The notes below the pieces were generated by a model. That model was not told the origin of the DNA, made no database searches, and saw only the letters and a program-made list of their open reading frames with translations. This document shows, piece by piece, positions 1 through 20,751 of a stretch of DNA of 64,000 nucleotides (its first letter is position 1; every line of letters begins with the position of its first letter). The translations under genes were made by a program, and so were the position numbers. The DNA comes from Candidatus Thalassarchaeaceae archaeon (GTDB taxonomy: Archaea; Thermoplasmatota; Poseidoniia; Poseidoniales; Thalassarchaeaceae): the NCBI GenBank assembly GCA_045568235.1, contig JBJLBJ010000001.1, positions 167 to 64,166 on the forward strand, in the 5' to 3' direction.

Positions 1-2
1 TG

Positions 3-2120
3 AAGAAAGCAGCAGAAGAAAAAGAAAAGAAGAAGATCGCAAGTGCTACGGCCAAGGCAAAGGGACAATCAGAAAGGGCCGCAGGAATTGTGGAAAGTTC
101 TGAGAAAAAACTTGCAAATGAAAAACAAAAGAAGAGCAAAAATGAAAGTGATATAGATAAACTCACGAAATCAATAGCCAAGTCAAGAGAAGAGATGAAA
201 GAAAACGCTCAGTCTAAAGCACGTTTGGAAAAAGAAACTGCAGAAATAATGAAGATAAATAGGGCACTTGATAAAAAATTAAGTTCATTAAATAAAACAA
301 GTAGTGAAACAACAAAGGCATTAGAAAAGTTAGTTAAAGAAGTGAAGCAACTCAGCGAAAAAACGGCCATTGACAATAAGGCTAGGAAAAAAATGGAATT
401 AGATATTGGGAAAGAAACCCATAAACTAGAGCAAGCAAAAAAGAAAATTACAGAAATAAAAAGGAAGAAGGAGTCGGCGATTTCTGAAGGTAAAGTTGCA
501 ACAAAATTAAGGGCAGAGCGAGATATAAAGTATCAAGCCGAAGTTAAGCCAAGAGTAGAGGCTGAAAGAAAATTGAAGAGTCTTGAGGCAGAAGAACACG
601 AATTAACTATAAAATTAAAGAAAACCAAACTTGAGTTGAATAATGTTGAAGAGTTAATTCAAACAAATATTGAAGATAGGAAAAAGATTGAAAAGAAGTT
701 ATTAGAACAAGAAAAGGCGATAGAAAAAATACACAAAGAAAATGACGAAAAACGTCAGAAGATAGAAGAATTGCACAAAGAAGTAGAACAAGAAAAAGGA
801 ACCTCAGCAGAAAAGAAAGAGGTTTTGGAAGCATCTCGAAAGAAACATAAACAAGCAGAAAAGTCTGCAGTTGATATTTTAGTTAGAAGAGAAGAAGTTG
901 AGAAGAAGTTAGACACTTTTAGGGAAAATAATGAAAAAATGGAAAAGGATGCTGAGAAGGAAGAAATGTTAGCAAAAGAAGCTGAGAAAAAGGCAGAAGA
1001 AGATAAGATAAAGGCTAAGAAAATAGAAGAAGAAATTAAAAAGTTAAAAAAATCATTTGAAGAATCCAAGAAAAAGTATGAAATTGCAAAGAAGACAAAA
1101 CAGGAAACTGAAAGGCTTGTCTTAGAAGAAGCAAAGATAAGAAGAGAGTTAGAGCAGAAGACAATCAAGCAGAAGAGTACTATATCAGAATTGAAGAAGC
1201 AATTAGAAGAGCAGAATAAGCAAAAAATAGAAGCTGAAAGACGTTCTCAAGAAGAAATAAAGAAGCGAAAGGCTACAGAAAGAGTTCTCAAAGAAGAAAC
1301 TGAAAGGTATATCGAATCAATGTCTCAAGTCAGTGCAGAAACACTGGCTAGAGAAGAGGCTGAAAGAAAGCAGAGGGTCGAAACTAAGGCGCATGCTGAT
1401 ATGGCAAAAAAGGCTAGTGATATGAAAGTTTCAAGGATTGAAGAAGAAAATAAAGCGAAAGAGGCGATGAGAGGAAAGGCTGCTGCAGAAAAAGAAGAAG
1501 AAAGAGTAAAGGAAGAAAGAATTAATCTTGAGAAGCAAATAAAAGAAGATGAAAAAGTAAGATTAAGAGCAATTAGAATAGCAGAGAGAGAAGATAAGTC
1601 AAAGATGACTGCAGAAGAAAAGATACTTGCAGAGAAAAAGGCTATGCAAAAGGCAAGAGATGATGTCAAAAAGAAGGCTGAAGCAAGAAAGAAGAAGGAA
1701 GAAGAAGAAAGAATGAATAAGCGTATGCGAGAATCAGAAAAAGAGCGAATAAAAAGAGAATTAGAAGAAGAGATTAGTACTGAATTAGAGAGATTGAGAG
1801 GCGAAGAAGACAAAATGACTCCAAAGGAATACATACTAGCTAGAGTTGATGTAAAAGGTCATTTGGTTGACTTTGATCTAATTGGCAGAGCGAGAGGTCG
1901 AGAAGATGATTTGCAAATGATAAAGGGAATTGATAGTTCCTTAGAAGAAAGGTTGAATTTAATAGGAATTACTACTTTTGACCAAATATCAAAAATGAAT
2001 GATGAAGTTGCAGACGTTGTTAATGATGCAATAGAGCATTTCCCAGGAAGAATTAGGAGACAAGGCTGGGTACAACAAGCAAAGGTCATCCTTGAAGATA
2101 ATTTGCTAAGTTCCTTGTGA
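3..2120 (+). CDS. Lys/Glu-rich coiled-coil protein, 5' end outside the window, with a C-terminal H3TH-like (COG3743-type) domain
   Basis: The frame is open from nt 3 to the TGA at 2118-2120, with no upstream stop, so GTG at 90 is only the first in-window start. The sequence is dominated by Lys/Glu low-complexity stretches typical of coiled coils. The last ~65 aa form a distinct globular-looking module. Confidence 0.8.
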   Translation, partial: KKAAEEKEKKKIASATAKAKGQSERAAGIVESSEKKLANEKQKKSKNESDIDKLTKSIAKSREEMKENAQSKARLEKETAEIMKINRALDKKLSSLNKTSSETTKALEKLVKEVKQLSEKTAIDNKARKKMELDIGKETHKLEQAKKKITEIKRKKESAISEGKVATKLRAERDIKYQAEVKPRVEAERKLKSLEAEEHELTIKLKKTKLELNNVEELIQTNIEDRKKIEKKLLEQEKAIEKIHKENDEKRQKIEELHKEVEQEKGTSAEKKEVLEASRKKHKQAEKSAVDILVRREEVEKKLDTFRENNEKMEKDAEKEEMLAKEAEKKAEEDKIKAKKIEEEIKKLKKSFEESKKKYEIAKKTKQETERLVLEEAKIRRELEQKTIKQKSTISELKKQLEEQNKQKIEAERRSQEEIKKRKATERVLKEETERYIESMSQVSAETLAREEAERKQRVETKAHADMAKKASDMKVSRIEEENKAKEAMRGKAAAEKEEERVKEERINLEKQIKEDEKVRLRAIRIAEREDKSKMTAEEKILAEKKAMQKARDDVKKKAEARKKKEEEERMNKRMRESEKERIKRELEEEISTELERLRGEEDKMTPKEYILARVDVKGHLVDFDLIGRARGREDDLQMIKGIDSSLEERLNLIGITTFDQISKMNDEVADVVNDAIEHFPGRIRRQGWVQQAKVILEDNLLSSL
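1901..2100 (+). other. C-terminal ~65-aa domain resembling the COG3743 'flap-endonuclease-like H3TH' module
   Basis: EDDLQMIKGIDSSLEERLNLIGITTFDQISKMNDEVADVVNDAIEHFPGRIRRQGWVQQAKVIL. The pattern IKGIG..LE.kLN.lGI.tF.QIA...........F.GRI.Rd.W..QA matches my recollection of the COG3743 domain found at C-termini of some NuoE and L21 proteins. No profile search was run. Confidence 0.55.
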
Positions 2121-2245
2121 AACTATCTAATATTTCTCCCTTATTTATGTCATTCAATATTAATTGATATGTTGATGATGATATTACATTAAAATTAATA
2201 TTAAGGTATATCATTAATAGTTAAAATGCCTTCGCAGACATTGGA

Positions 2246-5200
2246 ATGTATGGCAAGAAAGAAGTCGGTGCCATCTTTCTAGTTTTCTTGATGATATTGA
2301 GTACGCAAATTGCAATAATTGCTCAATGGGATTATGAATCAAAAGAGTTGTCCGATAATAGTCAGAGATTTGATTCAAACAATGCTGGTGTTAGTACTAT
2401 CTCACTTGGAGATAATTCAGCTTGTGCCATTGGAACAAATCAAAAAATGAAATGCTGGGGAGATGGGGCATTTGGTAAAACAGGTCATGGTAACACAGAA
2501 GATTATGGCGATGAAGAGTCTGAGATGGGACGTTACTTATATTTCACTGATGTAGGAGAAGGCATAACTTTCACAGATATTGCAATTGGTGAAACATTTT
2601 CTTGTGCACTTACTAATGATAGTGCAATAAGATGTTGGGGTGAAAATGACAAGTTAGGTAGTAGTGCAGGATTATCGGGGTCAGGCGCGATTGGAGATGG
2701 ATACCGTGAAATGGGAGCAAATATCAATGTTGTAACTATTGGTACGTGGAATGGAACATCGGTAGAAGCTGGTTCAAATCACGCCTGTGCCGTTGTTAAT
2801 AATGGTACGAATGATTCACTAGTATGTTGGGGAGGAAATTCTGCGGGTCAACTCGGACTTGGCCATACTAACACTATTGGTGATGATTCTGGCGATTTAG
2901 TAGGAGGAGAATTACCTCATGTAGATTTACCAGATAGAGGCCCAATAACAAATATTGCATTAGGCAATGACCACACATGTGTATTGTGGAGTGATGGACA
3001 AATAGGTTGTTGGGGAGATAATTCTCAAGGTCAATTAGGAATTGGTAACACAAACACTATTGGAGATGAATCTAATGAAATGGGTTCCAATTTAGTCTTG
3101 GTTGATTTGCCTAGTTCTAGGAGTGCTACAGCAATAACGGCAGGTAACGATTTTACTTGTGCAATCTTAGATGATTCATCTGCCTCCTGCTGGGGAGACG
3201 GATCTAATGGAAGATTAGGAACAGGATCTACTGGAGATCAAGGAGATGAGTCTGATGAGATTGGGGACGATCTAAATATTCTTAATTTAGGGACTGGACT
3301 TGGTGTAACATCATTTGATGCTGGGGAATCTCATGTTTGTGCAATCTTGACGAATGGTCTCTTAAAATGCTGGGGGTACAACGGCTTTGGACAACTTGGT
3401 TATGGAGATGGATATGATAGAGGAGATGATGACAATGAAATGGGTAACGAATTGGAATCCATACAATTAGGTAGTGGTAGGTTTGCTACTTCGATTCAAG
3501 CAGGAAATGCGTTCACATGTGCCTTACTAGATAATGCACAACTAAAATGTTGGGGAACTGGAGCAGATGGCAGAACAGGTTTAGAATTAACTGGTGCAAT
3601 GGGCGAACAAGTCAATGAAATGGGCGATAATTTGGCATATGTGCAACTTTTTATGCCGTTACCAACATTTTCGATTGAGTGTGATACTCAGGCAGAAGGA
3701 ACAATAGCAGAAAAAAAGGCACTAGATAGTACATCCAGTAGCGTTGGTAACAAAGTATCTAGCACTTTAACATCAAAAAACTGTGCCAGTATAGCATATG
3801 TAGATGATGACTCAAATAAATTAAAATTTGGGATATTTCATAAAAATAAATGGACAATAGAGAAAGTAGTTGAATGGGACTCAGGGATATATGATACGAG
3901 TATTGTTCTTGATTCGGACGATGATGCCCATATTTTCTTCATGGAGGAGGATGGGCCTGTCTATTCAACAAAAATAGATAGTGTATGGAGCTATGTTGAG
4001 CTTGATTCAGAATGGAGTGGTACTACTTTAAGTGCAGAAATTGATAGTTCTGGCAATTTCTATCTTTTTACGTTGACTACAACAGAGATGATAATTATTA
4101 CTTGTCTAGAATCTGCTGATTGCACTAATTCAGGTTCCTGGTCTGAAGTTGGCAGTAGAGCCGTAAACAGTGGAGGTTATGGGCTAGATAGTGACATCTC
4201 ATATGATGATGAGATTTGGATTACATATACTCATGTGAATTTTCATACTCATGTGATGGCTGACACATGTTCCAATCTATGTTATTCGTCACTAAGTAAT
4301 TGGATTCAAAAAACAATTAGTATTTTTGGAAATGTGTCTAGTTCGAATGCATCTTTAGCGATAGACATTGGAGCAGATAAGTCAATTCATATCGTACATA
4401 ATAATATGACCAATGGATTGCAATACTCACACTGTGAAACATCTTGTACCTCCTCCTCATCATGGTCAACTGAAGAAATAGCATCAGAGTATAGTACTGG
4501 AGTTGTAGATATTGCAACAGGCCCAGATACAACAGTCGTGATACTAGCAGGTACACCGGACGGAGAATTTACTCTTCATAAAAAGAATAATCAGTGGCAT
4601 TACAATGAAGTAAAGAATATTGGGGATTCTGGGTGGATGGCTGTAGAAATTACCGATCTTGGACAAATGTGGGGATTTGCATATTATCCAGACGATCCAA
4701 ATCCATTTTACTTGTTGAGACAAAAAGGTATGACTAGTTCAGGACTTAATCTCGATATCGACGGCGATGGATGGTCGAGACTAGAAGAACAAAATTGTGG
4801 TACTGATTTTAAAGATAGTACAAGCTATCCTTCCGATACTGATAACGATGGTATTTGTGAAGCAAATGATGGTGCTGTTACTGGAGAGTTAAGTTTAGGA
4901 GAATCTGATGCATTGTCATTAGGCGAGAAATTTGGATGTGCGCTATTATCTAACAATTCAGTGGCATGTTGGGGAGATAATTCAGAAGGCCAGCTTGGTA
5001 ATACTACGGTAGGCATGAATGTAAGTAATTATGCTGTAATGGTGGATTTTCCGGATGGATTCAAAGCAACTTCAATAGATGCAGGCGCTGCACATGCGTG
5101 TTCAGTTGGAGTAGATTTTACCGCCGTTTGCTGGGGGAGGAACACTGCAGGAGAATTAGGTAGAGGTACATTCTCATCTTATGAATCTCCAGGGCATGTA

Positions 5201-11200: not shown

Positions 11201-14200
11201 GATGGAGATGGTCTTGGAAATAATGTAGATACTGATGATGATGATCCTACAGTCAAAAATTCAGAACAGGATACAAAATTAACGTGGTCAGATATTGAAG
11301 AAGAAGCTTGTAGATATTTGCCTTGGAGTTCTGCGTCTACACCTTCGGATTACGATGGTGATGGCATATGTGATAAATTAGATTCGGACATTGATGGCAA
11401 TGGTTGGGAAAATTCGTATCAAAGACAATGTCATGATGTTGGATATTCAGATTCATGGCAGCAAACAGAATTCTATGGTGATTCCATATACGATGGAGCC
11501 AATTATGGAGGTTATGATTTTGTCATAGGAGATTATGGAATTCAGTTATTTGCCACATATTATGATGATTATCTTCAACATAAATTACTAAAGCATTGGA
11601 TGAATCTAGTCTCCTCGAGACCATCTGATTTATATGACGCAAATGGATATAATCATTTTGATGTAGAGTCTCAAAATGGAACATTATTCGTTGCTAATGA
11701 ATATCGCATAAGACAAGGTGCAATACTGAATGGAAGTCTATTATCGAGCAGCAATATGCCAGAAGCATCAGTAATGACTCAATCCTCCAATGGAGGTGAA
11801 TTAACGATAAGTCAAGATGGTCAAATGGTTGTAAGATATAATACCGGTAGTGGCAATAGAGTATATGGTAGTTATTTAAACACAGGAATAAATTTCAATT
11901 TTGATACGCCAATATCGGCATCCGGAGGTCAAATGATTTTTGGCCCTAATGGAAGGCTACATTTATTACAAGTTGATTTAGATGCAAGAAATTCGGACTT
12001 ACCTGTTGGATTTTACCACTCATATGCCGATCTTGGAAATTCTATGTCAGGTTCGACTACAGTCGATTGGAGTGAGCCTGAATTAATTCTAAATAGAAAT
12101 CAAAGTACATCCCAATACTCAGCTACCGATTATTCAGATGCCTCAGATTATTATGCCGACTTACATGTATCAAATGATGGAACAATTTATGCTGCAATGT
12201 ATAATACTACTAATTTAGTGATTGGAACATATGATGGCAGCTCATGGGGTAGCCAAGTTATTGCAGAAGCAACAGGGTCTAATGCAGGTGTTACGATATC
12301 ATCAAATTCAACTGGTATACCTCATATAGCTTGGCTGAATCAATCCTCAGACGTTTTAATGCTTTCAACCCTTGAAGGATCTGATTGGACTAATGTAGAA
12401 GTTTACAATGCGTCAGGAATTACTTCGTGGACGTATTCACAAACATACAGTAAACTCACACTGAGATTTAATGAATTTGATGATATATTCTTGATGTCTT
12501 CTTATGGAAGTCAGCCTAGTGCATTAATTCACCATAAAAGTCCGTTAAATTTCCCAGAATATAGTTACAGTCCCGGCGATTCCAATACTGATGGGATATG
12601 TGATAATTTGCAATATGCAGTTATTGAATACGAGACTGACCGTATTGTTTTCACAGAAGGCGAAGAAGATAGTGTAACGCCTACGTTTAGAGGTCAAGAA
12701 TTAGTGGAAGTTTGGGCTCCTTCACTCCCATCCGGATTAACCATAAATAACACAACGGGAATCATATCTGGAACGCCAATTATTTCGGATTTAGAAGGTA
12801 CTACTTACACCATATATTCTAATAGCTCTGATTCATCTTATCCTTACTCTTTAATCATATATGTAACTTCAAAGCCCTCTCATTATGCGGGATATGGTAG
12901 TTATTATGGATATCAAAGTTTATCAAATGGAATAAAAGAGATGTCTAATGCATATGATTCTGAAGGAAACCTGTATTATTATGGACATTGTCAATATATC
13001 TCGGAATGGGCGACAGATGGGGCTGTAGATAATTCATTTAATAGTTGTATTAATTATTATGACCTTATAGTAGCTAAAAGATATAGTAATTCAACATGGG
13101 CATGGGTAAAGCACTTAGATTGTAGTAGTGGTTGTTATGAAGGAGGATTGACCTTAGATGATGCAGGTAACTTATATGTTATTGGACACAGAAACGGAGG
13201 AGATCTAAATCTACCTGGTGATGATTGGGACTTGCCTTCTAGGAATGCAGCTTATACGATATCTTTCGATAATGATGGAGAAATAAGATGGGCGAAAGAC
13301 ATCTACAATCCATCTGGGGGCTATACAGTTTTTGTATTAGGGCATATGTATTCTTCCAGTGGAGCAGGTTTAAGTCAGATTAGTGTGAATAATTCTACAG
13401 GTGAATTGACATTCGCTGGAAGTTTATATTTTACAACGTCGAGCATGTCTTATAGAACAATTCGAATTGGAGATTTAACATATACAGAAGATGGAACATA
13501 TTACAGTTACTATAGGCCATTCATTGTAAGAATGAATGCAAATGGAAACTTTTCATGGTTTCAAAGTTTTAACTCCTTGCATGGGAGTCATAATACCTTG
13601 GAAGATATGGTAGTTCATGATAATGGAACGGTGAGCATATTAATGAAAGCATTTGGAAATGTTCAATTGGGTGAACATTATATTGCAGATACTGGCAATA
13701 AAGCAATATTAGGGAACATAAATTCATCTGGTAATTGGACTGGTGGCATCATTATAACTTCCAATCACGAAGAAAGTAATTTGTTTGATAATAGCCAAAC
13801 TTATTTAATGATGGAAAAAATATCTAGTGGTAACTTGATAATTTCATTGTTAGTTACAGATGATGCTACAGAAATGACAATAAATGGAGTTTCTTACTGG
13901 CTGAATACCACATGTGAATATGATGACCTAGTCCTATTCAAAATAAATAAAGATGATTATACTGTTCAAAGTAGCAGAGAAATATGTTACCTTAACGGTG
14001 CATTATCTAATGGGCATAAAGGAAGCGATATGAAAGTTGACTCAAAGGATAGGTTATGGCTATTTGTTGGCAATCACGCATCATACTATGCCTCCTTCCA
14101 TGGAATTATTAGAACCGACTCGAATCTTAATACAGACTTCAGAGAGAATTTTACGCATTATAATAATCCTAGTAGTACTTATCAATTTGGATGGCAAGAT

Positions 14201-17200
14201 GTTTGTTTTGATTCAAATGATAATCTAAAAGCAACAGCATATACCTCATCAGCTGGTCTATATTATGGTTCTGAATATGTGTATTATTCAGGATCTTACT
14301 ATTACAGAGATTTGTTCTTCATGGATACTGTAGAACATACCATAGATGGAAAAATGCCAGTATCAGGTGAATTAATGAGATTTAAAATCAAGGGACTCGG
14401 TGCTATTCAGAGAGGGACAAGTGACAATATAGATTCATTTGCAATTTATCCTGAAATACCAGATGGTTTGGCATTTAATACCGGAAATGGAGAAATAACA
14501 GGAACACCATTGACTAATTCTTCAATGGTCAATTACACCATATGGGTTAATGATACAACCTTTGGAAATCATATACTCAATATATCGTTTGGAATCGGCA
14601 ATGGTAAACCTACTGTAACATATAATGAGACCGAATATGTATTTGAAAGAGGGACTCCAATATCTCCAATAATACCAGCAGAGATTAATGGAAGTATAAT
14701 TTCATGGCAAATAGTTCCTGAGTTACCTGAAGGATTAGAATTAGGCGATGATAATGGAACAATATGGGGCACTCCGACGGTTAATTTAACAGCATCAACA
14801 TTTATGTTACAAGTAAGTAGTGATGGTGCAACCAGAAATATTAATTTCAATTTTACGATTAATGAACCAATAGCGACAATAGAATATGAAAATGGAACAG
14901 TAACAGTAGGCAGAGATACCGTAGTAAATGTACATCCTACTTTAGGAGGAGGAGTTGTAGCTTCATTTGGAATTTCTCCCTCCAGTCTTCCCTTAGGACT
15001 GTCATTTGACACAGAGTCAGGGAGAATATACGGAACTCCACGATTAACCACTGCAGGAGTAAATTATACTGCTTGGGCAACTAATAGTGGAGGAACAGCA
15101 TATACTAACTTTACATTGATTGTGACTGGAAGTGGCATTAGCCTTACATTCCCTACCTCAACCTTGCAGCTCGTTAATGGAAGTGAAATGCAACCATTCG
15201 CAGGACAAACCTCTGGTTCTGCGCCAGAATCATGGAATATTACTCCATATTTGCCAAATGGATTGGAATTTGGCGAGAATAATGGAACAATATGGGGAAC
15301 GCCTGAGAATATAATGAATGGAACGATATATACAATTTGGGCAAACACATCTGCTGGAGAATCTGCAAATGCGGAATTGAATATCTCAGTATTATTAGAT
15401 ACAGATGGAGATGGAGTGCCAGATATAACAGACTTTGATGATGATAATGACGGATGGTTTGACTCAGATGAGATATCATGTGGAAATGATCCTTTAGACC
15501 ATACTGATGTACCTTCAGATATGGATAATGATGGAATTTGCGACATATTAGATGAATCAGATGATTCAGTCATTGTAATTTCGTACTTAACAGATAATCT
15601 AAATATCACAGTAAATCAAAGTTTTACTCCACTTGTTCCTGTAACTTCTGGTGGAGCAATAACTAGTTGGGAAGTTTCCCCTGAATTACCATCTGATATA
15701 TTACTTAACCCTAGTAATGGAATTATTTCTGGAATGGCAATTACAACCTTTAATGCCACATTGTATACTATTTGGGCTAATAATTCGGCATATTCAGATT
15801 CATTTGACATCACAATTACTTCATCATTATTGGATACTGACGGAGATGGAATTCCTGATCAGACTGATGAAGATGATGATGGTGATGGTTGGTTAGATAC
15901 TGAGGAGATAATCTGTTTAACAGATGCTTTGGATGAAACAGAAGTTCCAACTGATAGTGATGGAGATGGTTTGTGTGATGGACAAGATAGTATAAACGAT
16001 AGTCAAGTATACCTATCATATGGAGTTGAACAAGTAATATACATAGTCAATCAAACTACAGATGCTTTGCATCCATTGGTATTTGGAGGAGATGTAGTTA
16101 CTTGGGAAATTTATCCAGAGCTTCCTGATGACTTAATTTTCAGCAATAATACGGGAGCAATAACGGGTATGGCAACATCATTATTTGAATCTCTAAATAT
16201 CACTATTTGGGCAAATAACTCCCTGCACTCATCAGAATATGTAATCGAAATATTATCCATATTACTGGATACTGACGGAGATGGAATTCCTGATGAAATT
16301 GACGATGATGACGATGATGATGGTTGGTTGGATGCTGATGAGATAACTTGTCTAACCGATACCATAGATGAAACTGATTACCCAACTGACAATGATAGAG
16401 ATAGTGTATGTGATGGTCTTGATGACGTAAATGACAGTCCGATATACCTCACATATTCCAGCATTGCTCAGAATCTATTTGTCAATGAACCAATGGATGT
16501 ACTTGTAGCAACAACATATGGAGGAGATGTGAGAGAATGGGAAATATATCCAGAATTGCCTGAAGGATTATATTTCGACAAGGGAATTGCCTATAGATCG
16601 TTAAATTCTGTAGGGACTGGAATCATTTCTGGAGCCCCAATAAATGAATTCAATCTTTCCACATTCACAATTTGGGCGAATAACTCACAACACAGTGATT
16701 CAGTTGTAATTACACTCAGGGCTTCAATTGCAGACATTGATGATTCGGACTTTGAATTAATTTACTTAGATGATTATGCCAATTTAACTGTGGATTTAGA
16801 TTATTTGTACCTCGAACCAATGATTTTTGGAGGAAATGTAACCAGTTGGAGTATAGTACCGGGAATGTTTGGAGGAATAACATTCAATACTACAAATGGA
16901 GTTATTTCTGGTACACCAAATATCGATATCGACTTGACTATATTTGAAATAACTGCTAGTAATTCAATCTATATTGATTCTTATAATGTTTCAATAATTG
17001 CCCAACATTTAGATACGGATTTAGATGGAATTCCTGATTACTTAGATGAAGATGATGATGGAGATGGGTGGACAGATGAAGTTGAAGAGTTATGTGGTAC
17101 AGACTCACTAGAATTTTATGATTTCCCAGGAGATATGGATTCTGATAATTTATGCGACTTTTTAGATGATGTTGATGATTCTCCAATATTGTTCTTTTAT

Positions 17201-19294
17201 CCAAATGACAAGATAGTAGCGACAGTAGGAGAAGCTATACAACCCATTGTACCTATAATTGCCCCAACGGGAGGAGATATCCTAAACTATAGTGTAACTC
17301 CGCAACTCCCAGAAGGATTGGGAATAGATAATGTAACAGGAATAATTTCAGGCATACCACTAAAAGAGTTCAATCACTTAATCTTAGAATATTCACATAC
17401 AATTAAAGCAACAAATGGACAATATGAATTTAGATATACTGTTGATTTTGATATTTTACCAGAAGTCATTAATAACACCGATAGTGATGAAGATGGATGG
17501 ACAGATGCAGATGAACTTGAATGTGGAACTTCACCATTTGATTCAATATCATATCCACTTGATATCGATAATGATGGTAAATGTGCTATGATTGATGATG
17601 ATGATGATGGAGATGGAAGAGCAGATTTGATAGATGATTTTGCCAACGATTCTACTGCATGGCTTGACACAGATGGCGATGGTTTACCTGATGAAGTAAC
17701 ATGTCAATATGCAGTTAACTCTGCTGAATGTGCATTAATGGACCTCATAGAAGATGATGATGATGATAATGATGGCTGGAATGATACCAGAGAGATTGAT
17801 TGTTCAACAGATCCTAAAAATAGTACTCATATACCAATTGATGATGATGATAATGGAATCTGTGACAGGCTTGAAGGGGTAGGAATTGAAAATGTTCCAA
17901 AAATATTGTGGATCTGCTGTTTCCCATTAATACTATTGTTGCTCTTACTTCTTTGGTTGGCCAATCCATTCGGCATCAATGATGAAGAGATTAGAGGCCC
18001 TGAACCGCCATATACTAGCTCCTCTCCTAAGATTGAAGGAGGCTCTGGAGAATATGATGACCCATTCATTCTCAAAACAATAAAGAATGTTAGAGCAGGA
18101 GGAAGTGTAGAAAGTAAAGAGTTAATTAAGATTACAAATATCACTCCGAGACTAGAAATAGACTTCATAAATCTATCAGTTGACGATGACGATGGTCGAT
18201 TCAATATGAATAATATGAAAGCTAATTCTAGAGGCGAAACTCAATTTAGATTACAATTTAATGATTTTAATATGAGTTCTGAAAATAAAAAATATATGGC
18301 ATTCATCAGAGTTGGAAAAGCATCAGTATATTTCAAATGGGAAGTTCAAGTAGTTATTCCCAAAGATTTGACTGATGAAGAAGTCGAAGCATCGAAAATC
18401 GCTGCCATGTCGGCTGCTGTAGCAGCGGAAGCGGAACGAAAAGCTGCTGAAGCAAATGCTGAAGCTGAAAGAGCGTTGGCAGAAGCTGAAAGAGAAGCTG
18501 CAATTGCTATGGAAACCTCTGCTGCTGCAAAGGCTGCTGAAGAGGAGGCGTCTGCAAAGGCTGCTGAAGAGGAGGCGTCTGCAAAGGCTGCTGAAGAGGA
18601 GGCGGCTGCAAAGGCTGCTGAAGAGGAGGCGGCTGCAAAGGCTGCTGAAGAGGAGGCGGCTGCAAAGGCTGCTGCTGTAAGAGCAAATTTGAAGGCGGCT
18701 CAAGAAGAAGCCGTAAGAATTGCTCAAGAAGAAGCCGAAAGAGCGTTAGAAAAGATGAATGAAGAAGAAAGAGCTGCTGCTGAAAAGGCTGCTGCTGCTG
18801 AAGAGAAGAAACGTAAGTTACTTGAAAGAGTAGCAGAAAAGGCTGAAAACATTGATTTTGCTACAATTGGTATTGCAGCAACTTCAGATATTGTTTCCGA
18901 AATTACAACTGAATCTACTAGTATAACCTTATCTGATGCCTCTTCATTCCCTGATAGTGGTAATGCATATATTTATGATCCAAGTGGTAATATTATACTA
19001 AAATGGGAAGGAAAGAAAGATAATACATTAATTGGAGTAAGTGGCATAACAAAAAACCCACCATTAGGTGCTATAATTATTGAGAGAGATAATCTTCAAG
19101 AAATCAAAGGAGTTGGTCCATTTATAGAAGAAAAATTAAATGCATTAGGAATATACACATTTAGACAGATTGCAAATATGAATTTTGAAATTGAAGAACA
19201 AGTAAATGTAGCTATAGAATTCTTCCCTGGAAGAATTAGAAGAGATGAATGGGCGAAACAGGCATATGATTTCATTAATGTCGATGAAAGTTAA
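2246..19294 (+). CDS. Giant (5,682 aa) type-I membrane surface protein: signal peptide, RCC1 repeats, propeller-blade repeats, Ca-binding Asp-rich repeats, Ig-like domains, one TM helix, coiled-coil cytoplasmic tail with an H3TH-like end
   Basis: A single uninterrupted 17,049-nt ORF. It has an N-terminal hydrophobic segment (GAIFLVFLMILSTQIAIIA). RCC1 signatures recur (CWGxNxxGQLGxGNT). DTDGDGIPD/DDDGDGW Asp-rich repeats alternate with LPxGLxxxxxTGxISGTP Ig-like units. A hydrophobic helix (ILWICCFPLILLLLLLLWLANPF) lies near the C-terminus and is followed by an Ala/Glu-rich region. Confidence 0.92.
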   Translation: MYGKKEVGAIFLVFLMILSTQIAIIAQWDYESKELSDNSQRFDSNNAGVSTISLGDNSACAIGTNQKMKCWGDGAFGKTGHGNTEDYGDEESEMGRYLYFTDVGEGITFTDIAIGETFSCALTNDSAIRCWGENDKLGSSAGLSGSGAIGDGYREMGANINVVTIGTWNGTSVEAGSNHACAVVNNGTNDSLVCWGGNSAGQLGLGHTNTIGDDSGDLVGGELPHVDLPDRGPITNIALGNDHTCVLWSDGQIGCWGDNSQGQLGIGNTNTIGDESNEMGSNLVLVDLPSSRSATAITAGNDFTCAILDDSSASCWGDGSNGRLGTGSTGDQGDESDEIGDDLNILNLGTGLGVTSFDAGESHVCAILTNGLLKCWGYNGFGQLGYGDGYDRGDDDNEMGNELESIQLGSGRFATSIQAGNAFTCALLDNAQLKCWGTGADGRTGLELTGAMGEQVNEMGDNLAYVQLFMPLPTFSIECDTQAEGTIAEKKALDSTSSSVGNKVSSTLTSKNCASIAYVDDDSNKLKFGIFHKNKWTIEKVVEWDSGIYDTSIVLDSDDDAHIFFMEEDGPVYSTKIDSVWSYVELDSEWSGTTLSAEIDSSGNFYLFTLTTTEMIIITCLESADCTNSGSWSEVGSRAVNSGGYGLDSDISYDDEIWITYTHVNFHTHVMADTCSNLCYSSLSNWIQKTISIFGNVSSSNASLAIDIGADKSIHIVHNNMTNGLQYSHCETSCTSSSSWSTEEIASEYSTGVVDIATGPDTTVVILAGTPDGEFTLHKKNNQWHYNEVKNIGDSGWMAVEITDLGQMWGFAYYPDDPNPFYLLRQKGMTSSGLNLDIDGDGWSRLEEQNCGTDFKDSTSYPSDTDNDGICEANDGAVTGELSLGESDALSLGEKFGCALLSNNSVACWGDNSEGQLGNTTVGMNVSNYAVMVDFPDGFKATSIDAGAAHACSVGVDFTAVCWGRNTAGELGRGTFSSYESPGHVILPDDQLVRNLAVGTSHNCIKTLEGNLYCWGESDNQRLGRISNVNVQIDNNENFDDITQLGWTGNFWSIETSNGNKILKRDYYNNWRDNSYQLPENTLFLVPGSKIQFEFDAYGFGNNANEWLKVWSGDVLIGTLVDNSSTSWEDNSWLSFDEGKTTITMTVPEDFSDTSGSLRFQVNCYRCQIRIDDLSTKTYAFGSTEDQNTPAKVTLSNTNSISEIALGNRHSCYTLETNYGGDETYCWGYNGGRHFNVLGNPRYNGETSYEPQLVDLSSRRSLISSVWDNYNVDSINAGSDTSCVIMDNLESICWGKSSQTEYNSPSSNVIISDGEYPALMKTGNIWSVAYYDSSSQDLGYAIYDGSVWNTEYVYSGSNDVGNGVSISVNSRNQTNIIAYDFTNDSLVHFNRLTNSTEYTAVDSGNSYFPTTVVGPDGYKHVVYYDNSNRDMKYTFFNGSEWSTPTIIEAGSSSSGIYSGWGIKDLEVDSDGNLHLSYFRWNAGPSNDIIYLKYAKYNGTSWNITQVREIISSGGVSTWVGKLETSLDLDSNNNPHIAYYDSRNSTLNYVYYDGTAWSDTVLTDESYDRGQFGSIGLDSNDYPRIAYFNQSGYNLELAVWNGSSWNFEVVESPANSGTSLGKYCNLEIGSNDLTQISYYGESGHSIKYAINEDDNWNIEEINTFGIQISNNYPLRFGIDNINNPKIAVTDYTGTDNVVVIYKSLGAWNIYEVEDNSGKHSAFPDLHVDSEGTAHVAYVDVNHRYVRYTTVYTDTIWTEETNLIETGDVSGSEPGTSLHFDQNQELNAIYIDGDESKLKQLIVHESGDIKRTVFADRGWYSSMEIDSSGVLHAAYWEYTNSNLVYAKKEGSLWQTTIIDSEGSVGKYPSLVLDNNQMPHISYKDETNDELKYAKYNGSGWEISQIDNNWDTYYNYGNIGETSIGIDSENNPHIAYKVQDGNGNGAWEYFVRYAYYNGSGWELIDVKTQDRTESSWTSYSNTGRDVSIAINSTDSVFIIYFDDYQDDLRVANITGLSLATGRVANNAAGLERSAALTIDSNDSLHVAYYDRSGADLHYAYCSLSCEIEGNWDITTDVDASTNSIGRRVDITVDTDNNPHIAHYDARNDDLEYAYCENTCDNQASWNKTTIESGNNVGYMPSLVLDNDGNKHFIHYNFSSIKVEYSVLYSGINSIYNISSVGSHHYQLGSAVTSSNNFIHLSYYNGSESDGKLQYSNINIITGMWETTVIDETATKIGLYSDIDLDSDGNPHISYFDATNNQIKYAKFDGTSWTITVITTVGSASSHTSIVLDDLDKAHVAYRNSNNGNLEMASWSGSDWAMTTQDNGGTGITDNSGVEINILDGKKYLAFYNGGNDNLEFATAGYYSPLLTGNSVYHHSGTSLDGGSSPVSAIDIGDTHGCAIINNATKCWGIGTFGQLGDNNFGAGSLSPVSVTSISGFIPIEVAVSIEESESSDSGFSCSIYRNLSTDGRYVMCWGHTENGRIGSGSSSGNLGEPSVTNMVKTGESTNLAIVDGSEYHATGPNDVMEVVLNKWVDSGHGCALSYAGHVKCWGYNLYGELGIGNTTTMGDNVNEMGDDLAFVPLGNNRTAKKISVGAYHTCAILDNDSVKCWGYNGHGQLGIGNTTTIGNNLWSMWGDNHPTVDLGTNVTATHITTGVWHTCVITNLGDVKCWGRNNVGQLGLGNTTQIGDESDEIGDNLPSVDLGYGRTAIDIVAGYQSTCVILDSGLVKCWGYNGYNQLGLSNTNNIGDYADEMGNDLAITDLGDNITATSLDSGLYHYCAIINTGDVKCWGYNAYGQLGLGNTTSPWGNVDGHMGDNLPSVDLGSGRTAKQIGVGGYHTCLILDNEDLKCWGHNNQGQLGLGNTNQIGDQLGEMGDNLISPTIPSSYIKSVTSGLRTSCAIIFDDSVRCWGYNGYGQLGLGNTDNIGDGVDEMGSNMQITDINLVVPDTDGDGWIDIWDDDDDNDGYIDFNDDLPLDVRDWIDSDGDGLGNNVDTDDDDPTVKNSEQDTKLTWSDIEEEACRYLPWSSASTPSDYDGDGICDKLDSDIDGNGWENSYQRQCHDVGYSDSWQQTEFYGDSIYDGANYGGYDFVIGDYGIQLFATYYDDYLQHKLLKHWMNLVSSRPSDLYDANGYNHFDVESQNGTLFVANEYRIRQGAILNGSLLSSSNMPEASVMTQSSNGGELTISQDGQMVVRYNTGSGNRVYGSYLNTGINFNFDTPISASGGQMIFGPNGRLHLLQVDLDARNSDLPVGFYHSYADLGNSMSGSTTVDWSEPELILNRNQSTSQYSATDYSDASDYYADLHVSNDGTIYAAMYNTTNLVIGTYDGSSWGSQVIAEATGSNAGVTISSNSTGIPHIAWLNQSSDVLMLSTLEGSDWTNVEVYNASGITSWTYSQTYSKLTLRFNEFDDIFLMSSYGSQPSALIHHKSPLNFPEYSYSPGDSNTDGICDNLQYAVIEYETDRIVFTEGEEDSVTPTFRGQELVEVWAPSLPSGLTINNTTGIISGTPIISDLEGTTYTIYSNSSDSSYPYSLIIYVTSKPSHYAGYGSYYGYQSLSNGIKEMSNAYDSEGNLYYYGHCQYISEWATDGAVDNSFNSCINYYDLIVAKRYSNSTWAWVKHLDCSSGCYEGGLTLDDAGNLYVIGHRNGGDLNLPGDDWDLPSRNAAYTISFDNDGEIRWAKDIYNPSGGYTVFVLGHMYSSSGAGLSQISVNNSTGELTFAGSLYFTTSSMSYRTIRIGDLTYTEDGTYYSYYRPFIVRMNANGNFSWFQSFNSLHGSHNTLEDMVVHDNGTVSILMKAFGNVQLGEHYIADTGNKAILGNINSSGNWTGGIIITSNHEESNLFDNSQTYLMMEKISSGNLIISLLVTDDATEMTINGVSYWLNTTCEYDDLVLFKINKDDYTVQSSREICYLNGALSNGHKGSDMKVDSKDRLWLFVGNHASYYASFHGIIRTDSNLNTDFRENFTHYNNPSSTYQFGWQDVCFDSNDNLKATAYTSSAGLYYGSEYVYYSGSYYYRDLFFMDTVEHTIDGKMPVSGELMRFKIKGLGAIQRGTSDNIDSFAIYPEIPDGLAFNTGNGEITGTPLTNSSMVNYTIWVNDTTFGNHILNISFGIGNGKPTVTYNETEYVFERGTPISPIIPAEINGSIISWQIVPELPEGLELGDDNGTIWGTPTVNLTASTFMLQVSSDGATRNINFNFTINEPIATIEYENGTVTVGRDTVVNVHPTLGGGVVASFGISPSSLPLGLSFDTESGRIYGTPRLTTAGVNYTAWATNSGGTAYTNFTLIVTGSGISLTFPTSTLQLVNGSEMQPFAGQTSGSAPESWNITPYLPNGLEFGENNGTIWGTPENIMNGTIYTIWANTSAGESANAELNISVLLDTDGDGVPDITDFDDDNDGWFDSDEISCGNDPLDHTDVPSDMDNDGICDILDESDDSVIVISYLTDNLNITVNQSFTPLVPVTSGGAITSWEVSPELPSDILLNPSNGIISGMAITTFNATLYTIWANNSAYSDSFDITITSSLLDTDGDGIPDQTDEDDDGDGWLDTEEIICLTDALDETEVPTDSDGDGLCDGQDSINDSQVYLSYGVEQVIYIVNQTTDALHPLVFGGDVVTWEIYPELPDDLIFSNNTGAITGMATSLFESLNITIWANNSLHSSEYVIEILSILLDTDGDGIPDEIDDDDDDDGWLDADEITCLTDTIDETDYPTDNDRDSVCDGLDDVNDSPIYLTYSSIAQNLFVNEPMDVLVATTYGGDVREWEIYPELPEGLYFDKGIAYRSLNSVGTGIISGAPINEFNLSTFTIWANNSQHSDSVVITLRASIADIDDSDFELIYLDDYANLTVDLDYLYLEPMIFGGNVTSWSIVPGMFGGITFNTTNGVISGTPNIDIDLTIFEITASNSIYIDSYNVSIIAQHLDTDLDGIPDYLDEDDDGDGWTDEVEELCGTDSLEFYDFPGDMDSDNLCDFLDDVDDSPILFFYPNDKIVATVGEAIQPIVPIIAPTGGDILNYSVTPQLPEGLGIDNVTGIISGIPLKEFNHLILEYSHTIKATNGQYEFRYTVDFDILPEVINNTDSDEDGWTDADELECGTSPFDSISYPLDIDNDGKCAMIDDDDDGDGRADLIDDFANDSTAWLDTDGDGLPDEVTCQYAVNSAECALMDLIEDDDDDNDGWNDTREIDCSTDPKNSTHIPIDDDDNGICDRLEGVGIENVPKILWICCFPLILLLLLLLWLANPFGINDEEIRGPEPPYTSSSPKIEGGSGEYDDPFILKTIKNVRAGGSVESKELIKITNITPRLEIDFINLSVDDDDGRFNMNNMKANSRGETQFRLQFNDFNMSSENKKYMAFIRVGKASVYFKWEVQVVIPKDLTDEEVEASKIAAMSAAVAAEAERKAAEANAEAERALAEAEREAAIAMETSAAAKAAEEEASAKAAEEEASAKAAEEEAAAKAAEEEAAAKAAEEEAAAKAAAVRANLKAAQEEAVRIAQEEAERALEKMNEEERAAAEKAAAAEEKKRKLLERVAEKAENIDFATIGIAATSDIVSEITTESTSITLSDASSFPDSGNAYIYDPSGNIILKWEGKKDNTLIGVSGITKNPPLGAIIIERDNLQEIKGVGPFIEEKLNALGIYTFRQIANMNFEIEEQVNVAIEFFPGRIRRDEWAKQAYDFINVDES
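2390..3650 (+). repeat. RCC1-like repeat block 1 (about 7-8 blades) of the giant protein
   Basis: Repeated ~55-60-aa units, each with a C[AV]I/L....[KR]CWG.[ND]..GQLG.G motif, for example MKCWGDGAFGKTGHG, IGCWGDNSQGQLGIGNT and LKCWGYNGFGQLGYGD. Confidence 0.75.
6190..9330 (+). repeat. Roughly twenty ~45-55-aa blade-like repeats of an unnamed family
   Basis: Approximate consensus: D[SD][DN]gNPHI[AS]Y.D..n..L.YA.y.G..W. Examples read by eye: HIAYYDSRNSTLNYVYYDGTAWS, HISYKDETNDELKYAKYNGSGWE, HVAYYDRSGADLHYAYC, HISYFDATNNQIKYAKFDGTSWT and HVAYRNSNNGNLEMASWSGSDW. I cannot assign a named family without a profile search. Confidence 0.55.
9400..11080 (+). repeat. RCC1-like repeat block 3; seven well-conserved blades with a 177-183-nt DNA period
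   Basis: The string tgttgggg (CWG) starts at 9890, 10070, 10253, 10433, 10613, 10796 and 10973. Each is followed by near-identical DNA (ggatacaatggctatggtcaacttggacttggaaatac and variants). Confidence 0.85.
15392..17890 (+). repeat. Tandem modules of [Asp-rich Ca-binding/Cys-containing repeat + Ig-like domain] in the giant protein
   Basis: LLDTDGDG[IV]PD..D.DDDGDGW.D..E..C.TD..D....P.D.D.D..CD..D...DS starts (gat ac. ga. gga gat gga) at 15398, 15833, 16268 and 17012, giving spacings of 435, 435 and 744 nt. Each is followed by a ~90-aa unit with the W[EN]I.PELP...........G.I[ST]G motif. Confidence 0.75.
17903..17971 (+). other. Predicted single transmembrane helix of the giant protein
   Basis: KILWICCFPLILLLLLLLWLANPFGI is the only strongly hydrophobic stretch after the N-terminal signal. 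What follows is charged Ala/Glu/Lys-rich sequence, consistent with a cytoplasmic location. Confidence 0.7.
18527..18675 (+). repeat. Five tandem 27-nt in-frame repeats plus a partial copy, encoding AKAAEEEA[S/A]
   Basis: gcaaaggctgctgaagaggaggcg[t/g]ct is repeated head-to-tail and reads AKAAEEEAS AKAAEEEAS AKAAEEEAA AKAAEEEAA AKAAEEEAA. Confidence 0.95.
19088..19291 (+). other. C-terminal H3TH-like (COG3743-type) module of the giant protein, paralogous to 1901..2100
   Basis: DNLQEIKGVGPFIEEKLNALGIYTFRQIANMNFEIEEQVNVAIEFFPGRIRRDEWAKQAYDFI aligns without gaps to the tail of the upstream protein. Shared elements are L-Q-x-IKG, E-E-[KR]-LN, GI-x-TF-x-QI, AIE-x-FPGRIRR, W-x-QA. Confidence 0.6.
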
Positions 19295-20711: not shown

Positions 20712-20751
20712 TTTTCGTAATAGATTTAGCCCTCCTACACATCCGGTGTTT

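What the first reader, a model, noticed from the sequence alone, without database searches (positions are those of the whole stretch)
1..19294. Giant surface protein and the adjacent coiled-coil protein end in the same cytoplasmic module, suggesting a paired surface-to-cytoplasm assembly
Two consecutive co-oriented genes encode (i) a long Lys/Glu-rich coiled-coil protein with no signal sequence visible in the window and (ii) a 5,682-aa type-I membrane protein. After its single TM helix, the giant protein's ~440-aa tail has a small beta-rich domain, an Ala/Glu-rich coiled coil, and then a ~65-aa C-terminal module. That module aligns without gaps to the C-terminus of protein (i): DDLQMIKGIDSSLEERLNLIGITTFDQISKMNDEVADVVNDAIEHFPGRIRRQGWVQQAKVIL versus DNLQEIKGVGPFIEEKLNALGIYTFRQIANMNFEIEEQVNVAIEFFPGRIRRDEWAKQAYDFI. 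The module looks like the poorly characterised COG3743 H3TH domain (a fold related to flap-endonuclease DNA-binding helices). A basic/acidic coiled-coil partner beside an acidic coiled-coil tail, both capped by the same putative nucleic-acid- or protein-binding module, suggests a complex that links an enormous extracellular adhesin-like ectodomain to a cytoplasmic scaffold, or possibly to the nucleoid. I know of no described system of this kind in archaea.
Basis: partly seen in the sequence, partly recalled or inferred. Interest (0 to 1): 0.78.

Follow-up and report, generated by a model that had tools for sequence, protein, structure and literature searches.

The report
Shared DNA-binding-type cap on archaeal surface-protein tail
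A giant surface protein of an uncultured marine archaeon and the coiled-coil protein encoded next to it both end in the same small helix-hairpin-helix module, whose one studied relative ties storage granules to the chromosome. The module is a standard tail cap in this archaeal group, so the two genes are probably not a dedicated pair.

Summary
The ORF at 2246-19294 encodes a 5,682-aa type-I membrane protein. Its last ~63 residues align without gaps to the C-terminus of the upstream protein (34/59 identical, E=4e-18).

Both ends belong to the COG3743/PhaH-type helix-hairpin-helix (HhH) family. This module also caps alphaproteobacterial NuoE, S2, L21, Urf1/protein-O and the Caulobacter phasin PhaH, where it binds DNA non-specifically.

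The "paired assembly" reading is only partly supported.
- The module, in 1-3 copies, caps a conserved cytoplasmic tail cassette on many Marine Group II surface proteins. All 120 listed homologues of the tail carry it.
- It occurs in more than 14,000 protein clusters overall, typically at the far end of membrane-anchored proteins.
- In all 8 related contigs, two genes (a LysE-like gene and an opposite-strand HTH_10 gene) lie between the two genes. Direct adjacency in this window comes from a ~1.4-kb deletion.
- The Ala/Glu tail segment shows no heptad signal and is a 27-bp-repeat spacer. An orthologous tail has an acidic linker there instead.

Best reading: the module attaches the cytoplasmic end of both proteins to the nucleoid. 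This is inferred by homology and weakened by the modules' acidity. It is a new variant of a known kind, of moderate interest.

The parts
3..2120 (+). Protein (i), cut at its 5' end by the window edge: a soluble basic Lys/Glu coiled-coil protein. Orthologues are 849-906 aa.
   Evidence: Orthologue P0121 is 890 aa with no TM. Heptad periodicity z=6.8. Net charge +23, pI 9.3.
1866..1886 (+). 'VDFDLIG' motif, the N-terminal extension of the module in protein (i).
   Evidence: The same I/V-D-F-x-x-I-G element precedes modules in MGII tails and in bacterial relatives.
1905..2093 (+). HhH module of protein (i). It is a divergent copy whose first hairpin reads G-I-D instead of G-h-G.
   Evidence: HMM E=6.6e-33. 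NCBIfam NuoE/S2/L21/PhaH C-terminal region. The Asp in the hairpin is invariant in 5 orthologues.
2121..2245 (.). AT-rich 125-bp intergenic spacer and deletion scar. Relatives carry about 1.44 kb here, holding a LysE-like gene and an HTH_10 gene.
   Evidence: blastn: window 1-2120 matches L012 9960-12079, and window 2204-2947 matches L012 13521-14264. All 8 related loci keep both genes. Neither gene is anywhere in the window.
2246..19294 (+). Giant type-I membrane protein, 5,682 aa.
   Evidence: The orthologue in L007 is 53% identical over 2,812 aa.
2261..2317 (+). N-terminal signal peptide or anchor (residues 6-24).
   Evidence: Hydropathy.
2318..17890 (+). Ectodomain with RCC1-like propellers, He_PIG Ig domains and Asp-rich Ca-binding-type motifs. 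It is Cys- and sequon-rich.
   Evidence: Pfam WD40_RLD 1e-88, RCC1_2, He_PIG 7e-48. 84 Cys and 98 sequons.
17891..17965 (+). Single transmembrane helix (about residues 5216-5240).
   Evidence: Hydropathy. Homologues carry Arg/Lys just after it.
17996..18361 (+). 'GPEPP' box plus a juxtamembrane all-beta Ig-like domain of ASH/PapD/MSP-like fold.
   Evidence: AF2 pLDDT 88.7. Foldseek: HYDIN PapD-like domain E=4.7e-5, CEP192 ASH, VAP MSP. 72 of the 121 proteins held at that point (120 tail hits plus P0121) matched across nearly the whole domain.
18359..18847 (+). Ala/Glu-rich helical spacer (39% Ala, 26% Glu, net -19) that includes a 27-bp tandem repeat at 18524-18674.
   Evidence: No heptad signal. 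Orthologue P0085 has an acidic linker instead.
18851..18871 (+). 'IDFATIG' motif.
18881..19084 (+). Small beta-barrel domain inserted between the IDF motif and the module.
   Evidence: AF2 strands at model residues 26-93. Only weak Foldseek matches to small barrels, such as phage tail proteins and the F1-ATPase crown.
19088..19276 (+). C-terminal HhH module of the giant protein, with a canonical G-V-G hairpin and the P-G-R-I-R-R-D-E-W motif.
   Evidence: HMM E=8.7e-36. NCBIfam. PDB sequence hits 8yy9_O and 9wqv_a. AF2 gives a short helix, the G-V-G hairpin and four further helices.
19344..20711 (+). MscS-type channel gene. It serves as a synteny marker that identifies orthologous tails in other contigs.
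   Evidence: Pfam. 72% identical to the gene following tail P0085 in L020.

Best explanation
**What it is.** The window comes from a Marine Group II archaeon (Poseidoniales, probably Thalassarchaeaceae; nearest record is MAG TMED129). The shared ~65-80-aa element is a COG3743/PhaH-type helix-hairpin-helix module.

In this archaeal group the module is the standard C-terminal cap, in 1-3 copies, of a conserved cytoplasmic tail cassette. The cassette runs: TM, then a GPEPE box plus an Ig-like domain, then a variable helical or acidic spacer, then an IDFxxIG motif with or without a small beta-barrel, then the module. It is carried by type-I surface proteins of 1,300 to more than 5,000 aa.

Protein (i) is a separate, soluble, ~850-aa basic heptad coiled-coil protein that ends in a divergent copy of the same module.

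**How it most likely works (inferred, not shown).** The module fastens the far cytoplasmic end of its bearer to the nucleoid by sequence-independent DNA binding, as the homologous domain of Caulobacter PhaH does for PHB granules. The giant protein would then be a membrane-to-nucleoid tether with a spacer of adjustable length. Protein (i) would be a nucleoid-associated coiled-coil protein. The two would meet at most indirectly, on DNA.

**The pairing.** The neighbourhood is inherited synteny within one clade. Direct adjacency in this window results from a ~1.44-kb deletion that removed a LysE-like gene and an HTH_10 gene.
For: **Homology**
- Both tails match the same C-terminal stretch of the NCBIfam models for NuoE (E about 1e-15 to 1e-16), S2, L21 and phasin PhaH (positions about 168-232 of 234, E about 2e-6).
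- A profile search of PDB sequences finds only Urf1/protein-O strongly (E=1e-17), then the HhH motifs of Y-family polymerases, Pol beta and NusA.
- Multi-copy relatives pass the Pfam HHH_5, Cdd1, IMS_HHH and HHH thresholds.

**Function precedent**
- PhaH binds PHB granules with its N-terminus and binds DNA non-specifically with its C-terminal HhH domain (review PMC13052382, citing Salinas et al. 2023). It is also listed as a predicted DNA-binding domain in PMC12678847.

**Generality**
- All 120 listed tail homologues end in 1-3 modules.
- 14,381 50%-identity clusters hold the module. In 107 of the top 146 the last module lies within 15 aa of the C-terminus.
- Most of these also have an N-terminal or internal TM, often followed by a long coiled coil.
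- One relative is 6TM-PAS-GGDEF-EAL followed by 4 modules, which places the module in the cytoplasm.

**Synteny**
- All 8 related loci have the order protein (i), LysE-like gene, HTH_10 gene (opposite strand), giant orthologue.
- The deletion junctions were mapped by blastn.
- The orthologous tail, identified by its downstream MscS gene, keeps the module but not the Ala/Glu helix.
Against: - The modules are acidic to neutral (net 0 to -8, pI 4.3-6.8) and the giant's whole tail is -33. That is unusual for a DNA binder. Acidic HhH domains such as the NusA AR repeats bind proteins instead.
- Protein (i)'s module has a conserved Asp where the canonical G-h-G hairpin contacts phosphate.
- The module also sits on ribosomal proteins and NuoE, where DNA binding has no obvious role. 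Two structural papers call its function obscure or unknown (PMC12079452, PMC13066640).
- I could not read the primary PhaH paper or align the PhaH sequence directly.
- The two genes remain neighbours in every relative found, so a functional link is not excluded.
Confidence: 0.45

Rival explanations
1. Paired assembly. Protein (i) docks onto the giant protein's tail, either through heterodimerisation of the two C-terminal HhH modules (as the C-terminal (HhH)2 domains of ERCC1-XPF do) or through attraction between the basic coil of (i) and the acidic tail. This would build a cytoplasmic scaffold under the surface protein.
For: - The two genes are neighbours in the window and in all 8 related contigs.
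- They hold the only two module copies in 64 kb.
- The charges are opposite: coil +23, tail -33.
- The module is the most conserved part of protein (i), and its divergent hairpin Asp is invariant, which suggests a specialised role.
- In an unrelated GC-rich MGII lineage, a small tail-only membrane protein with a weak module directly follows a giant gene (L003).
- HhH2-mediated heterodimers are established knowledge for ERCC1-XPF. That is my recollection and was not tested here.
Against: - All relatives have two intervening genes, one on the opposite strand, so there is no conserved co-transcription.
- All related contigs share wide synteny, so neighbourhood there may be simple inheritance.
- Protein (i) orthologues were found only in this clade, while module-tailed surface proteins are widespread.
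- Tail genes in L001, L002, L023 and L025 have no second module gene in the flanks held.
- The Ala/Glu segment lacks heptads, grows by tandem repeat, and is replaced by an acidic linker in an orthologue.
Confidence: 0.17
2. The module is a protein-protein docking domain, not a DNA binder. It would plug membrane-anchored and soluble bearers into a common, abundant cytoplasmic partner or into each other, much as the acidic HhH repeats of NusA bind the RNA polymerase alpha-CTD.
For: - The modules are acidic.
- There are weak profile matches to NusA AR domains (E about 0.03).
- The module occurs on ribosomal proteins S2 and L21, on NuoE, and on the RC-LH1 subunit Urf1/protein-O.
- Some proteins carry arrays of up to 26 copies.
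Against: - The only member with reported biochemistry, PhaH, binds DNA.
- Most copies keep the G-h-G hairpin, and two Arg in the second hairpin are invariant.
- Acidic proteomes are common in this organism: several housekeeping proteins in the window have pI 4.1-4.6.
Confidence: 0.25
3. Protein (i) is not a separate protein but the cytoplasmic tail of another giant surface protein whose gene starts upstream of the window.
For: - The ORF runs off the window edge.
- MGII giant genes do occur in tandem (L001).
- Some tails, such as P0108, have Lys/Glu/Arg-rich helices like protein (i).
Against: - Orthologues in 8 contigs are complete 849-906-aa ORFs with a start codon and a small N-terminal helical domain, and with no TM and no GPEPE box.
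- They lie directly downstream of a DEAD-box helicase gene.
Confidence: 0.01

Closest known systems
Phasin PhaH of Caulobacter crescentus (NCBIfam NF045508; Salinas et al. 2023, as reviewed in PMC13052382)
   Same: It has a C-terminal HhH module of the same family (both window modules match model positions about 168-232 of 234). It follows the same logic: one end binds a cellular structure and the C-terminal module binds the nucleoid.
   Different: PhaH is a small soluble bacterial protein that binds PHB granules. Here the bearers are an archaeal 5,682-aa type-I surface protein and an ~850-aa coiled-coil protein. DNA binding is not shown for these copies, which are acidic.
Urf1 / protein-O / protein-3h of alphaproteobacterial RC-LH1 complexes (PDB 8yy9_O, 9wqv_a), and the C-terminal extensions of alphaproteobacterial NuoE, S2 and L21
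   Same: These are the best sequence matches among solved-structure entries (E=1e-17 with a profile). Urf1 is also membrane-anchored, with the module at the end of a flexible cytoplasmic linker.
   Different: They are bacterial, with a two- or three-helix N-terminal anchor and no ectodomain. The module is not resolved in the maps and its function is called obscure or unknown by the authors.
Membrane-anchor / long coiled coil / C-terminal HhH-array proteins from metagenomes, source organisms unknown and uncharacterised (for example P0133, P0139, P0142, P0254)
   Same: They share the module, the same IDFxxIG pre-motif, the same placement at the very C-terminus, and a long helical stalk between membrane and modules.
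   Different: The anchor is an N-terminal TM without a large ectodomain. Protein (i) resembles them but lacks the TM. None has a known function.
ERCC1-XPF / Mus81-Eme1 C-terminal (HhH)2 heterodimers
   Same: Two proteins each end in an HhH-type domain, which is the precedent for the 'paired' reading.
   Different: There is no detectable specific sequence relationship, no nuclease domains here, and heterodimerisation was not tested. This comparison rests on my own knowledge.
ComEA (membrane-anchored HhH DNA receptor for competence)
   Same: It is a membrane-tethered HhH DNA-binding domain.
   Different: The ComEA HhH domain faces outward to bind incoming DNA. Here the module follows the only TM of a type-I protein and is cytoplasmic.

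Membership tests
COG3743 / PhaH-type HhH module | Sequence match to the family's profile region | tested here: met
   Both tails match the C-terminal extension of NCBIfam NuoE (1.8e-15 and 2.1e-16), S2, L21 and PhaH (1.6e-6 and 2.9e-6). PDB hits are Urf1/protein-O at 3e-10 and 1.7e-17 with a profile.
COG3743 / PhaH-type HhH module | Canonical helix-hairpin-helix G-h-G hairpin | tested here: inconclusive
   The giant protein has IKGVGPF, which is canonical. Protein (i) has IKGIDSS, and G-[IL]-D is conserved in 5 orthologues. The second hairpin, FPGRIRR, is kept in both.
COG3743 / PhaH-type HhH module | Compact helical (HhH)2-like fold | tested here: met
   The AF2 model of the giant's last 162 aa (pLDDT 86.9) shows a short helix, the hairpin, and helices at 105-114, 119-123, 127-137 and 147-161. 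Foldseek was dominated by the adjoining barrel, so there is no fold-level match for the module itself.
COG3743 / PhaH-type HhH module | Non-specific DNA binding | not testable with these tools
   Known only for PhaH, from the literature. The modules here are acidic.
FEN-1-like 5' nuclease (the name attached to COG3743) | PIN-like/XPG nuclease catalytic domain | tested here: not met
   Pfam and NCBIfam find no nuclease domain in either protein, only the HhH-type module. The 'nuclease' name should not be transferred.
Type-I membrane protein with cytoplasmic tail | N-terminal signal, single TM, tail inside the cell | tested here: met
   Two hydrophobic segments only. Cys 84 versus 0 and sequons 18.9 versus 6.7 per 1000 aa. 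Homologues have positive residues just after the TM. The module is fused to cytoplasmic GGDEF-EAL elsewhere. No dedicated topology predictor was available.
Coiled coil | Heptad (3.5-residue) hydrophobic periodicity | tested here: met
   For protein (i), z=6.8 against shuffles.
Coiled coil (tail Ala/Glu segment) | Heptad (3.5-residue) hydrophobic periodicity | tested here: not met
   z=-1.0 with 10% hydrophobic residues. The period is 9 residues, from a 27-bp repeat.
Conserved gene pair / operon | Adjacent, co-oriented genes in related genomes | tested here: not met
   All 8 related loci have two genes in between, one on the opposite strand. Neighbourhood within about 1.5 kb is conserved, but only inside one syntenic clade. 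Five tail genes of other lineages show no soluble partner in the flanks held; one (L003) is followed by a tail-only membrane protein with a weak module.
HhH2-mediated heterodimer (ERCC1-XPF type) | Specific interface between the two C-terminal modules | not tested

The most novel reading that the evidence does not exclude
Marine Group II archaea physically couple their giant, hypervariable surface adhesins to the chromosome. A conserved tail cassette projects 1-3 DNA-binding HhH modules into the nucleoid, and the neighbouring coiled-coil protein, with its specialised module, acts as the nucleoid-side scaffold or adaptor. This would be a prokaryotic outside-to-nucleoid linkage, loosely analogous to eukaryotic integrin-cytoskeleton-LINC coupling. 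It could serve to partition the adhesins, to position them, or to transmit surface attachment to the genome.
Probability: 0.15. Interest if true: 0.85.

Novelty: new variant of a known kind. Interest (0 to 1): 0.52.

Why it matters
Marine Group II archaea are among the most abundant uncultured archaea in the surface ocean. Their giant surface proteins are thought to mediate attachment and lie in hypervariable regions.

A conserved cytoplasmic tail capped by a PhaH-type module means these proteins are wired to something inside the cell and do not simply hang on the membrane. That gives a concrete, testable handle on proteins that cannot yet be studied in culture: short recombinant modules, DNA-binding assays, and localisation in a heterologous host.

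More broadly, the same module sits at the distal end of thousands of membrane-anchored proteins in public genome and metagenome data (source organisms not identified) and on alphaproteobacterial NuoE, S2, L21 and Urf1, where its role is called unknown. A demonstrated function here would carry over to all of them.

The finding also warns against copying the database label '5' DNA nuclease' onto these proteins.

Tried and rejected
1. **Protein (i) as the tail of an upstream giant.** Rejected: orthologues are complete soluble proteins.
2. **Pfam on single modules.** Only sub-threshold hits to Cdd1, HHH_5 and DUF4332. NCBIfam was needed to place them.
3. **Homology searches with protein (i).** The full 705 aa gave 1 hit and the last 112 aa gave 7 short fragments. 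Low-complexity Lys/Glu words swamp the word index, so the family's true spread is under-sampled.
4. **The search for related loci.** This was enough for synteny but does not give a census.
5. **Foldseek on the C-terminal model.** It matched only the small barrel (phage tail proteins, F1-ATPase crown, E>=3e-4) and said nothing about the module.
6. **Long-read MGII contigs L001-L003.** Giant genes there are broken by frameshifts, and their starts lie beyond the 10-kb flanks, so upstream partners could not be checked.
7. **Literature.** Nothing was found on MGII tails or on HhH modules in Poseidoniales. DUF4332 and 'NuoE extension' searches were uninformative. The primary PhaH paper is not held.
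8. **Relocation of the two missing genes.** The LysE-like and HTH_10 genes are absent from the whole window.

Full report
**1. What is in the sequence**

The first 19.3 kb of the window hold two co-oriented ORFs. Protein (i) runs off the 5' edge and ends at 2120, with 705 codons visible. The giant ORF spans 2246-19294 and encodes 5,682 aa.

BLASTP of the two C-termini gives 34/59 identities with no gaps, E=4e-18. An HMM built from the module finds exactly two copies in all six frames of the 64-kb window, one at each of these C-termini.

**2. Organism**

Neighbouring genes include Cbf5 with DKCLD and PUA domains, an EMC3/TMCO1-like insertase and a GPN-loop GTPase. These indicate an archaeon.

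The nearest public DNA is 'Euryarchaeota archaeon TMED129', about 93% nucleotide identity over protein (i). Further relatives are labelled Candidatus Thalassarchaeaceae and Candidatus Poseidoniales. The window thus comes from Marine Group II.

**3. Anatomy of the giant protein**

Pfam finds RCC1-like propellers and He_PIG Ig domains in the ectodomain.

Hydropathy finds only an N-terminal signal/anchor (residues 6-24) and one TM at about 5216-5240. Several observations place the 448-aa tail in the cytoplasm:
- The ectodomain has 84 Cys and 18.9 sequons per 1000 aa. The tail has no Cys and 6.7 sequons per 1000 aa.
- Homologous tails carry 2-3 Arg/Lys directly after the TM.
- The module is elsewhere fused behind cytoplasmic PAS-GGDEF-EAL domains.

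The tail has five parts:
- A 'GPEPP' box and an all-beta domain. AF2 gives pLDDT 88.7. The best fold matches are ASH/PapD/MSP-type Ig-like domains such as HYDIN (E=4.7e-5), CEP192 and VAP.
- A 163-aa Ala/Glu-rich segment.
- An 'IDFATIG' motif.
- A small beta-barrel.
- The module. AF2 of the last 162 aa gives pLDDT 86.9.

The Ala/Glu segment is not a demonstrable coiled coil. It has 10% hydrophobic residues and no 3.5-residue periodicity (z=-1.0). It contains a 27-bp tandem repeat, x5.6 at 98% identity, encoding AAKAAEEEA.

Protein (i), by contrast, has strong heptad periodicity (z=6.8) and is basic, with net charge +23.

**4. What the module is**

Pfam gives only sub-threshold hits to HhH families for a single copy.

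NCBIfam places both tails on the same C-terminal stretch of several models. These are alphaproteobacterial NuoE (about 1e-15 to 1e-16), S2, L21, and the phasin PhaH (positions about 168-232 of 234, about 2e-6). JGI annotates homologues with the COG3743 name.

Among proteins with solved structures, the only strong matches are Urf1/protein-O of RC-LH1 complexes. In both structure papers the C-terminal domain is not resolved and its function is called obscure or unknown.

Relatives with many copies pass the Pfam HHH_5, Cdd1, IMS_HHH and HHH thresholds.

No nuclease domain is present, so the '5' DNA nuclease' label does not apply.

The one member with reported function is Caulobacter PhaH. Its N-terminus binds PHB granules, and its C-terminal HhH domain binds DNA non-specifically, tying granules to the nucleoid (review PMC13052382, citing Salinas et al. 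2023).

**5. How general the tail is**

A search with the tail returned 356 hits. All 120 listed hits end in the module: 88 have two copies, 19 have three and 13 have one. Many also show the TM, the GPEPE box and the Ig-like domain.

Long-read contigs show that these hits are the 3' ends of very large, frameshift-split surface-protein genes. Complete examples of 1,361 aa and 1,668 aa also exist.

An exhaustive profile search found the module in 14,381 clusters at 50% identity, with up to 26 tandem copies per protein. In 107 of the top 146, the last module lies within 15 residues of the C-terminus. Most of these have an N-terminal or internal TM, often followed by a long coiled coil.

The recurrent design is membrane anchor, then helical stalk, then distal module or modules.

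**6. Is the pair conserved?**

I first suspected that protein (i) was the tail of another giant protein. That is refuted. Orthologues are complete 849-906-aa soluble proteins encoded after a DEAD-box helicase gene.

In all eight related contigs, three at 90-95% and five at about 71-75% identity in the C-terminal 200 aa, the gene order is the same:
- protein (i)
- a LysE-like gene
- an HTH_10 gene on the opposite strand
- the giant orthologue, 53% identical over 2,812 aa

The window lacks the two middle genes. blastn maps the junctions, and neither gene is elsewhere in the window. Direct adjacency is therefore a strain-specific result of a deletion of about 1.44 kb.

The neighbourhood is conserved, but all these contigs share wide synteny, so this may be simple inheritance.

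Tail genes of other lineages were checked within the flanks held:
- L001, L002 and L025 show no second module gene in the downstream flank. L023, covered 10 kb on both sides, also shows none.
- L003 has a small tail-only membrane protein with a weak module right after a giant gene.

The orthologous tail, recognised by its downstream MscS gene (72% identical), keeps the Ig-like domain, the barrel and the module. It replaces the Ala/Glu helix with an acidic linker.

**7. Interpretation**

- **Shown:** the shared homologous module, the cytoplasmic placement, a conserved tail cassette that is widespread in MGII, and neighbourhood without conserved adjacency.
- **Inferred:** the module attaches its bearer to the nucleoid, as in PhaH. 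On this reading the giant protein is a membrane-to-nucleoid tether with an evolvable spacer, and protein (i) is a nucleoid-associated coiled-coil protein.

Four points count against the inference:
- The modules are acidic to neutral (net 0 to -8) and the tail is -33 overall.
- Protein (i) has a conserved Asp in the first hairpin.
- The module also occurs on ribosomal proteins and NuoE.
- I could not read the primary PhaH paper.

The rivals are a protein-docking role like that of the NusA acidic HhH repeats (weak profile hits), and a true heterodimeric pairing of the two modules, for which ERCC1-XPF is a precedent from my own knowledge. Neither is excluded. A multimer prediction could not be run.

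**8. Novelty**

The domain family and the PhaH-type tethering logic are known. I found no description of its use as the cytoplasmic cap of giant archaeal surface proteins.

I rate it a new variant of a known kind. Interest is moderate, and would be higher if DNA binding or a specific complex with protein (i) were demonstrated.

Noticed in passing
L019 654-720 and L020 620-690: In two independent assemblies, the orthologous tail (upstream of the MscS orthologue) is separated from its ectodomain and TM by an in-frame TAA directly after the GPEP box (ggc ccg gag ccg TAA). The ectodomain end there is a different Cys-rich repeat, so the ectodomain is mosaic while the tail and the MscS gene are conserved.
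   Followed up: partly
window 18524-18674: A 27-bp tandem repeat, 5.6 copies at 98% identity, encodes AAKAAEEEA inside the tail spacer. The spacer's length appears to change by repeat expansion.
   Followed up: yes
window 2121-2245 versus L012 12080-13520: A deletion of about 1.44 kb, relative to all 8 related contigs, removed a LysE-like membrane protein gene and a divergently oriented HTH_10 regulator gene next to the giant gene. The regulator may control the giant gene. An assembly artefact is not excluded.
   Followed up: partly
P0129, P0130, P0131: Proteins of 2,280-3,115 aa carry 20-26 tandem copies of the same HhH module. P0211 is 6TM-PAS-GGDEF-EAL followed by 4 modules. P0133 is an N-terminal TM, about 1,000 aa of coiled coil, and 4 modules.
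   Followed up: partly
L003 11721-13336: A small membrane protein with the same juxtamembrane domain, an acidic linker and a divergent module (frameshifted in the long-read assembly) lies directly downstream of a giant gene's tail in a GC-rich MGII lineage.
   Followed up: partly
L025 4260-5651: An HTH_10 gene and a 203-aa gene again sit between a module-tailed surface protein and another large gene, in a different orientation from the window's clade. This may be a recurrent regulator association with these surface-protein genes.
   Followed up: no
window 20680-22050: A type IB topoisomerase gene (Topoisom_I plus the bacterial-type N-terminal domain) overlaps the end of the MscS gene by 32 nt. 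I noted it as a possibly unusual enzyme for a euryarchaeon.
   Followed up: no
window 54940-59256 (-), 60620-63970 (-), 24360-25526 (+): Three other surface proteins in the window have a C-terminal TM followed by only a short tail of 10-65 aa, with no module. The long module-capped tail is specific to the giant protein.
   Followed up: yes
window 28250-31207 (-) and 52312-54840 (-): One gene encodes a 985-aa protein with a Pro-rich N-terminus, EETTEEE repeats and a C-terminal zinc-ribbon-like CxxC...CxxC. The other encodes an 842-aa STAND-type AAA_16 plus TPR protein.
   Followed up: no
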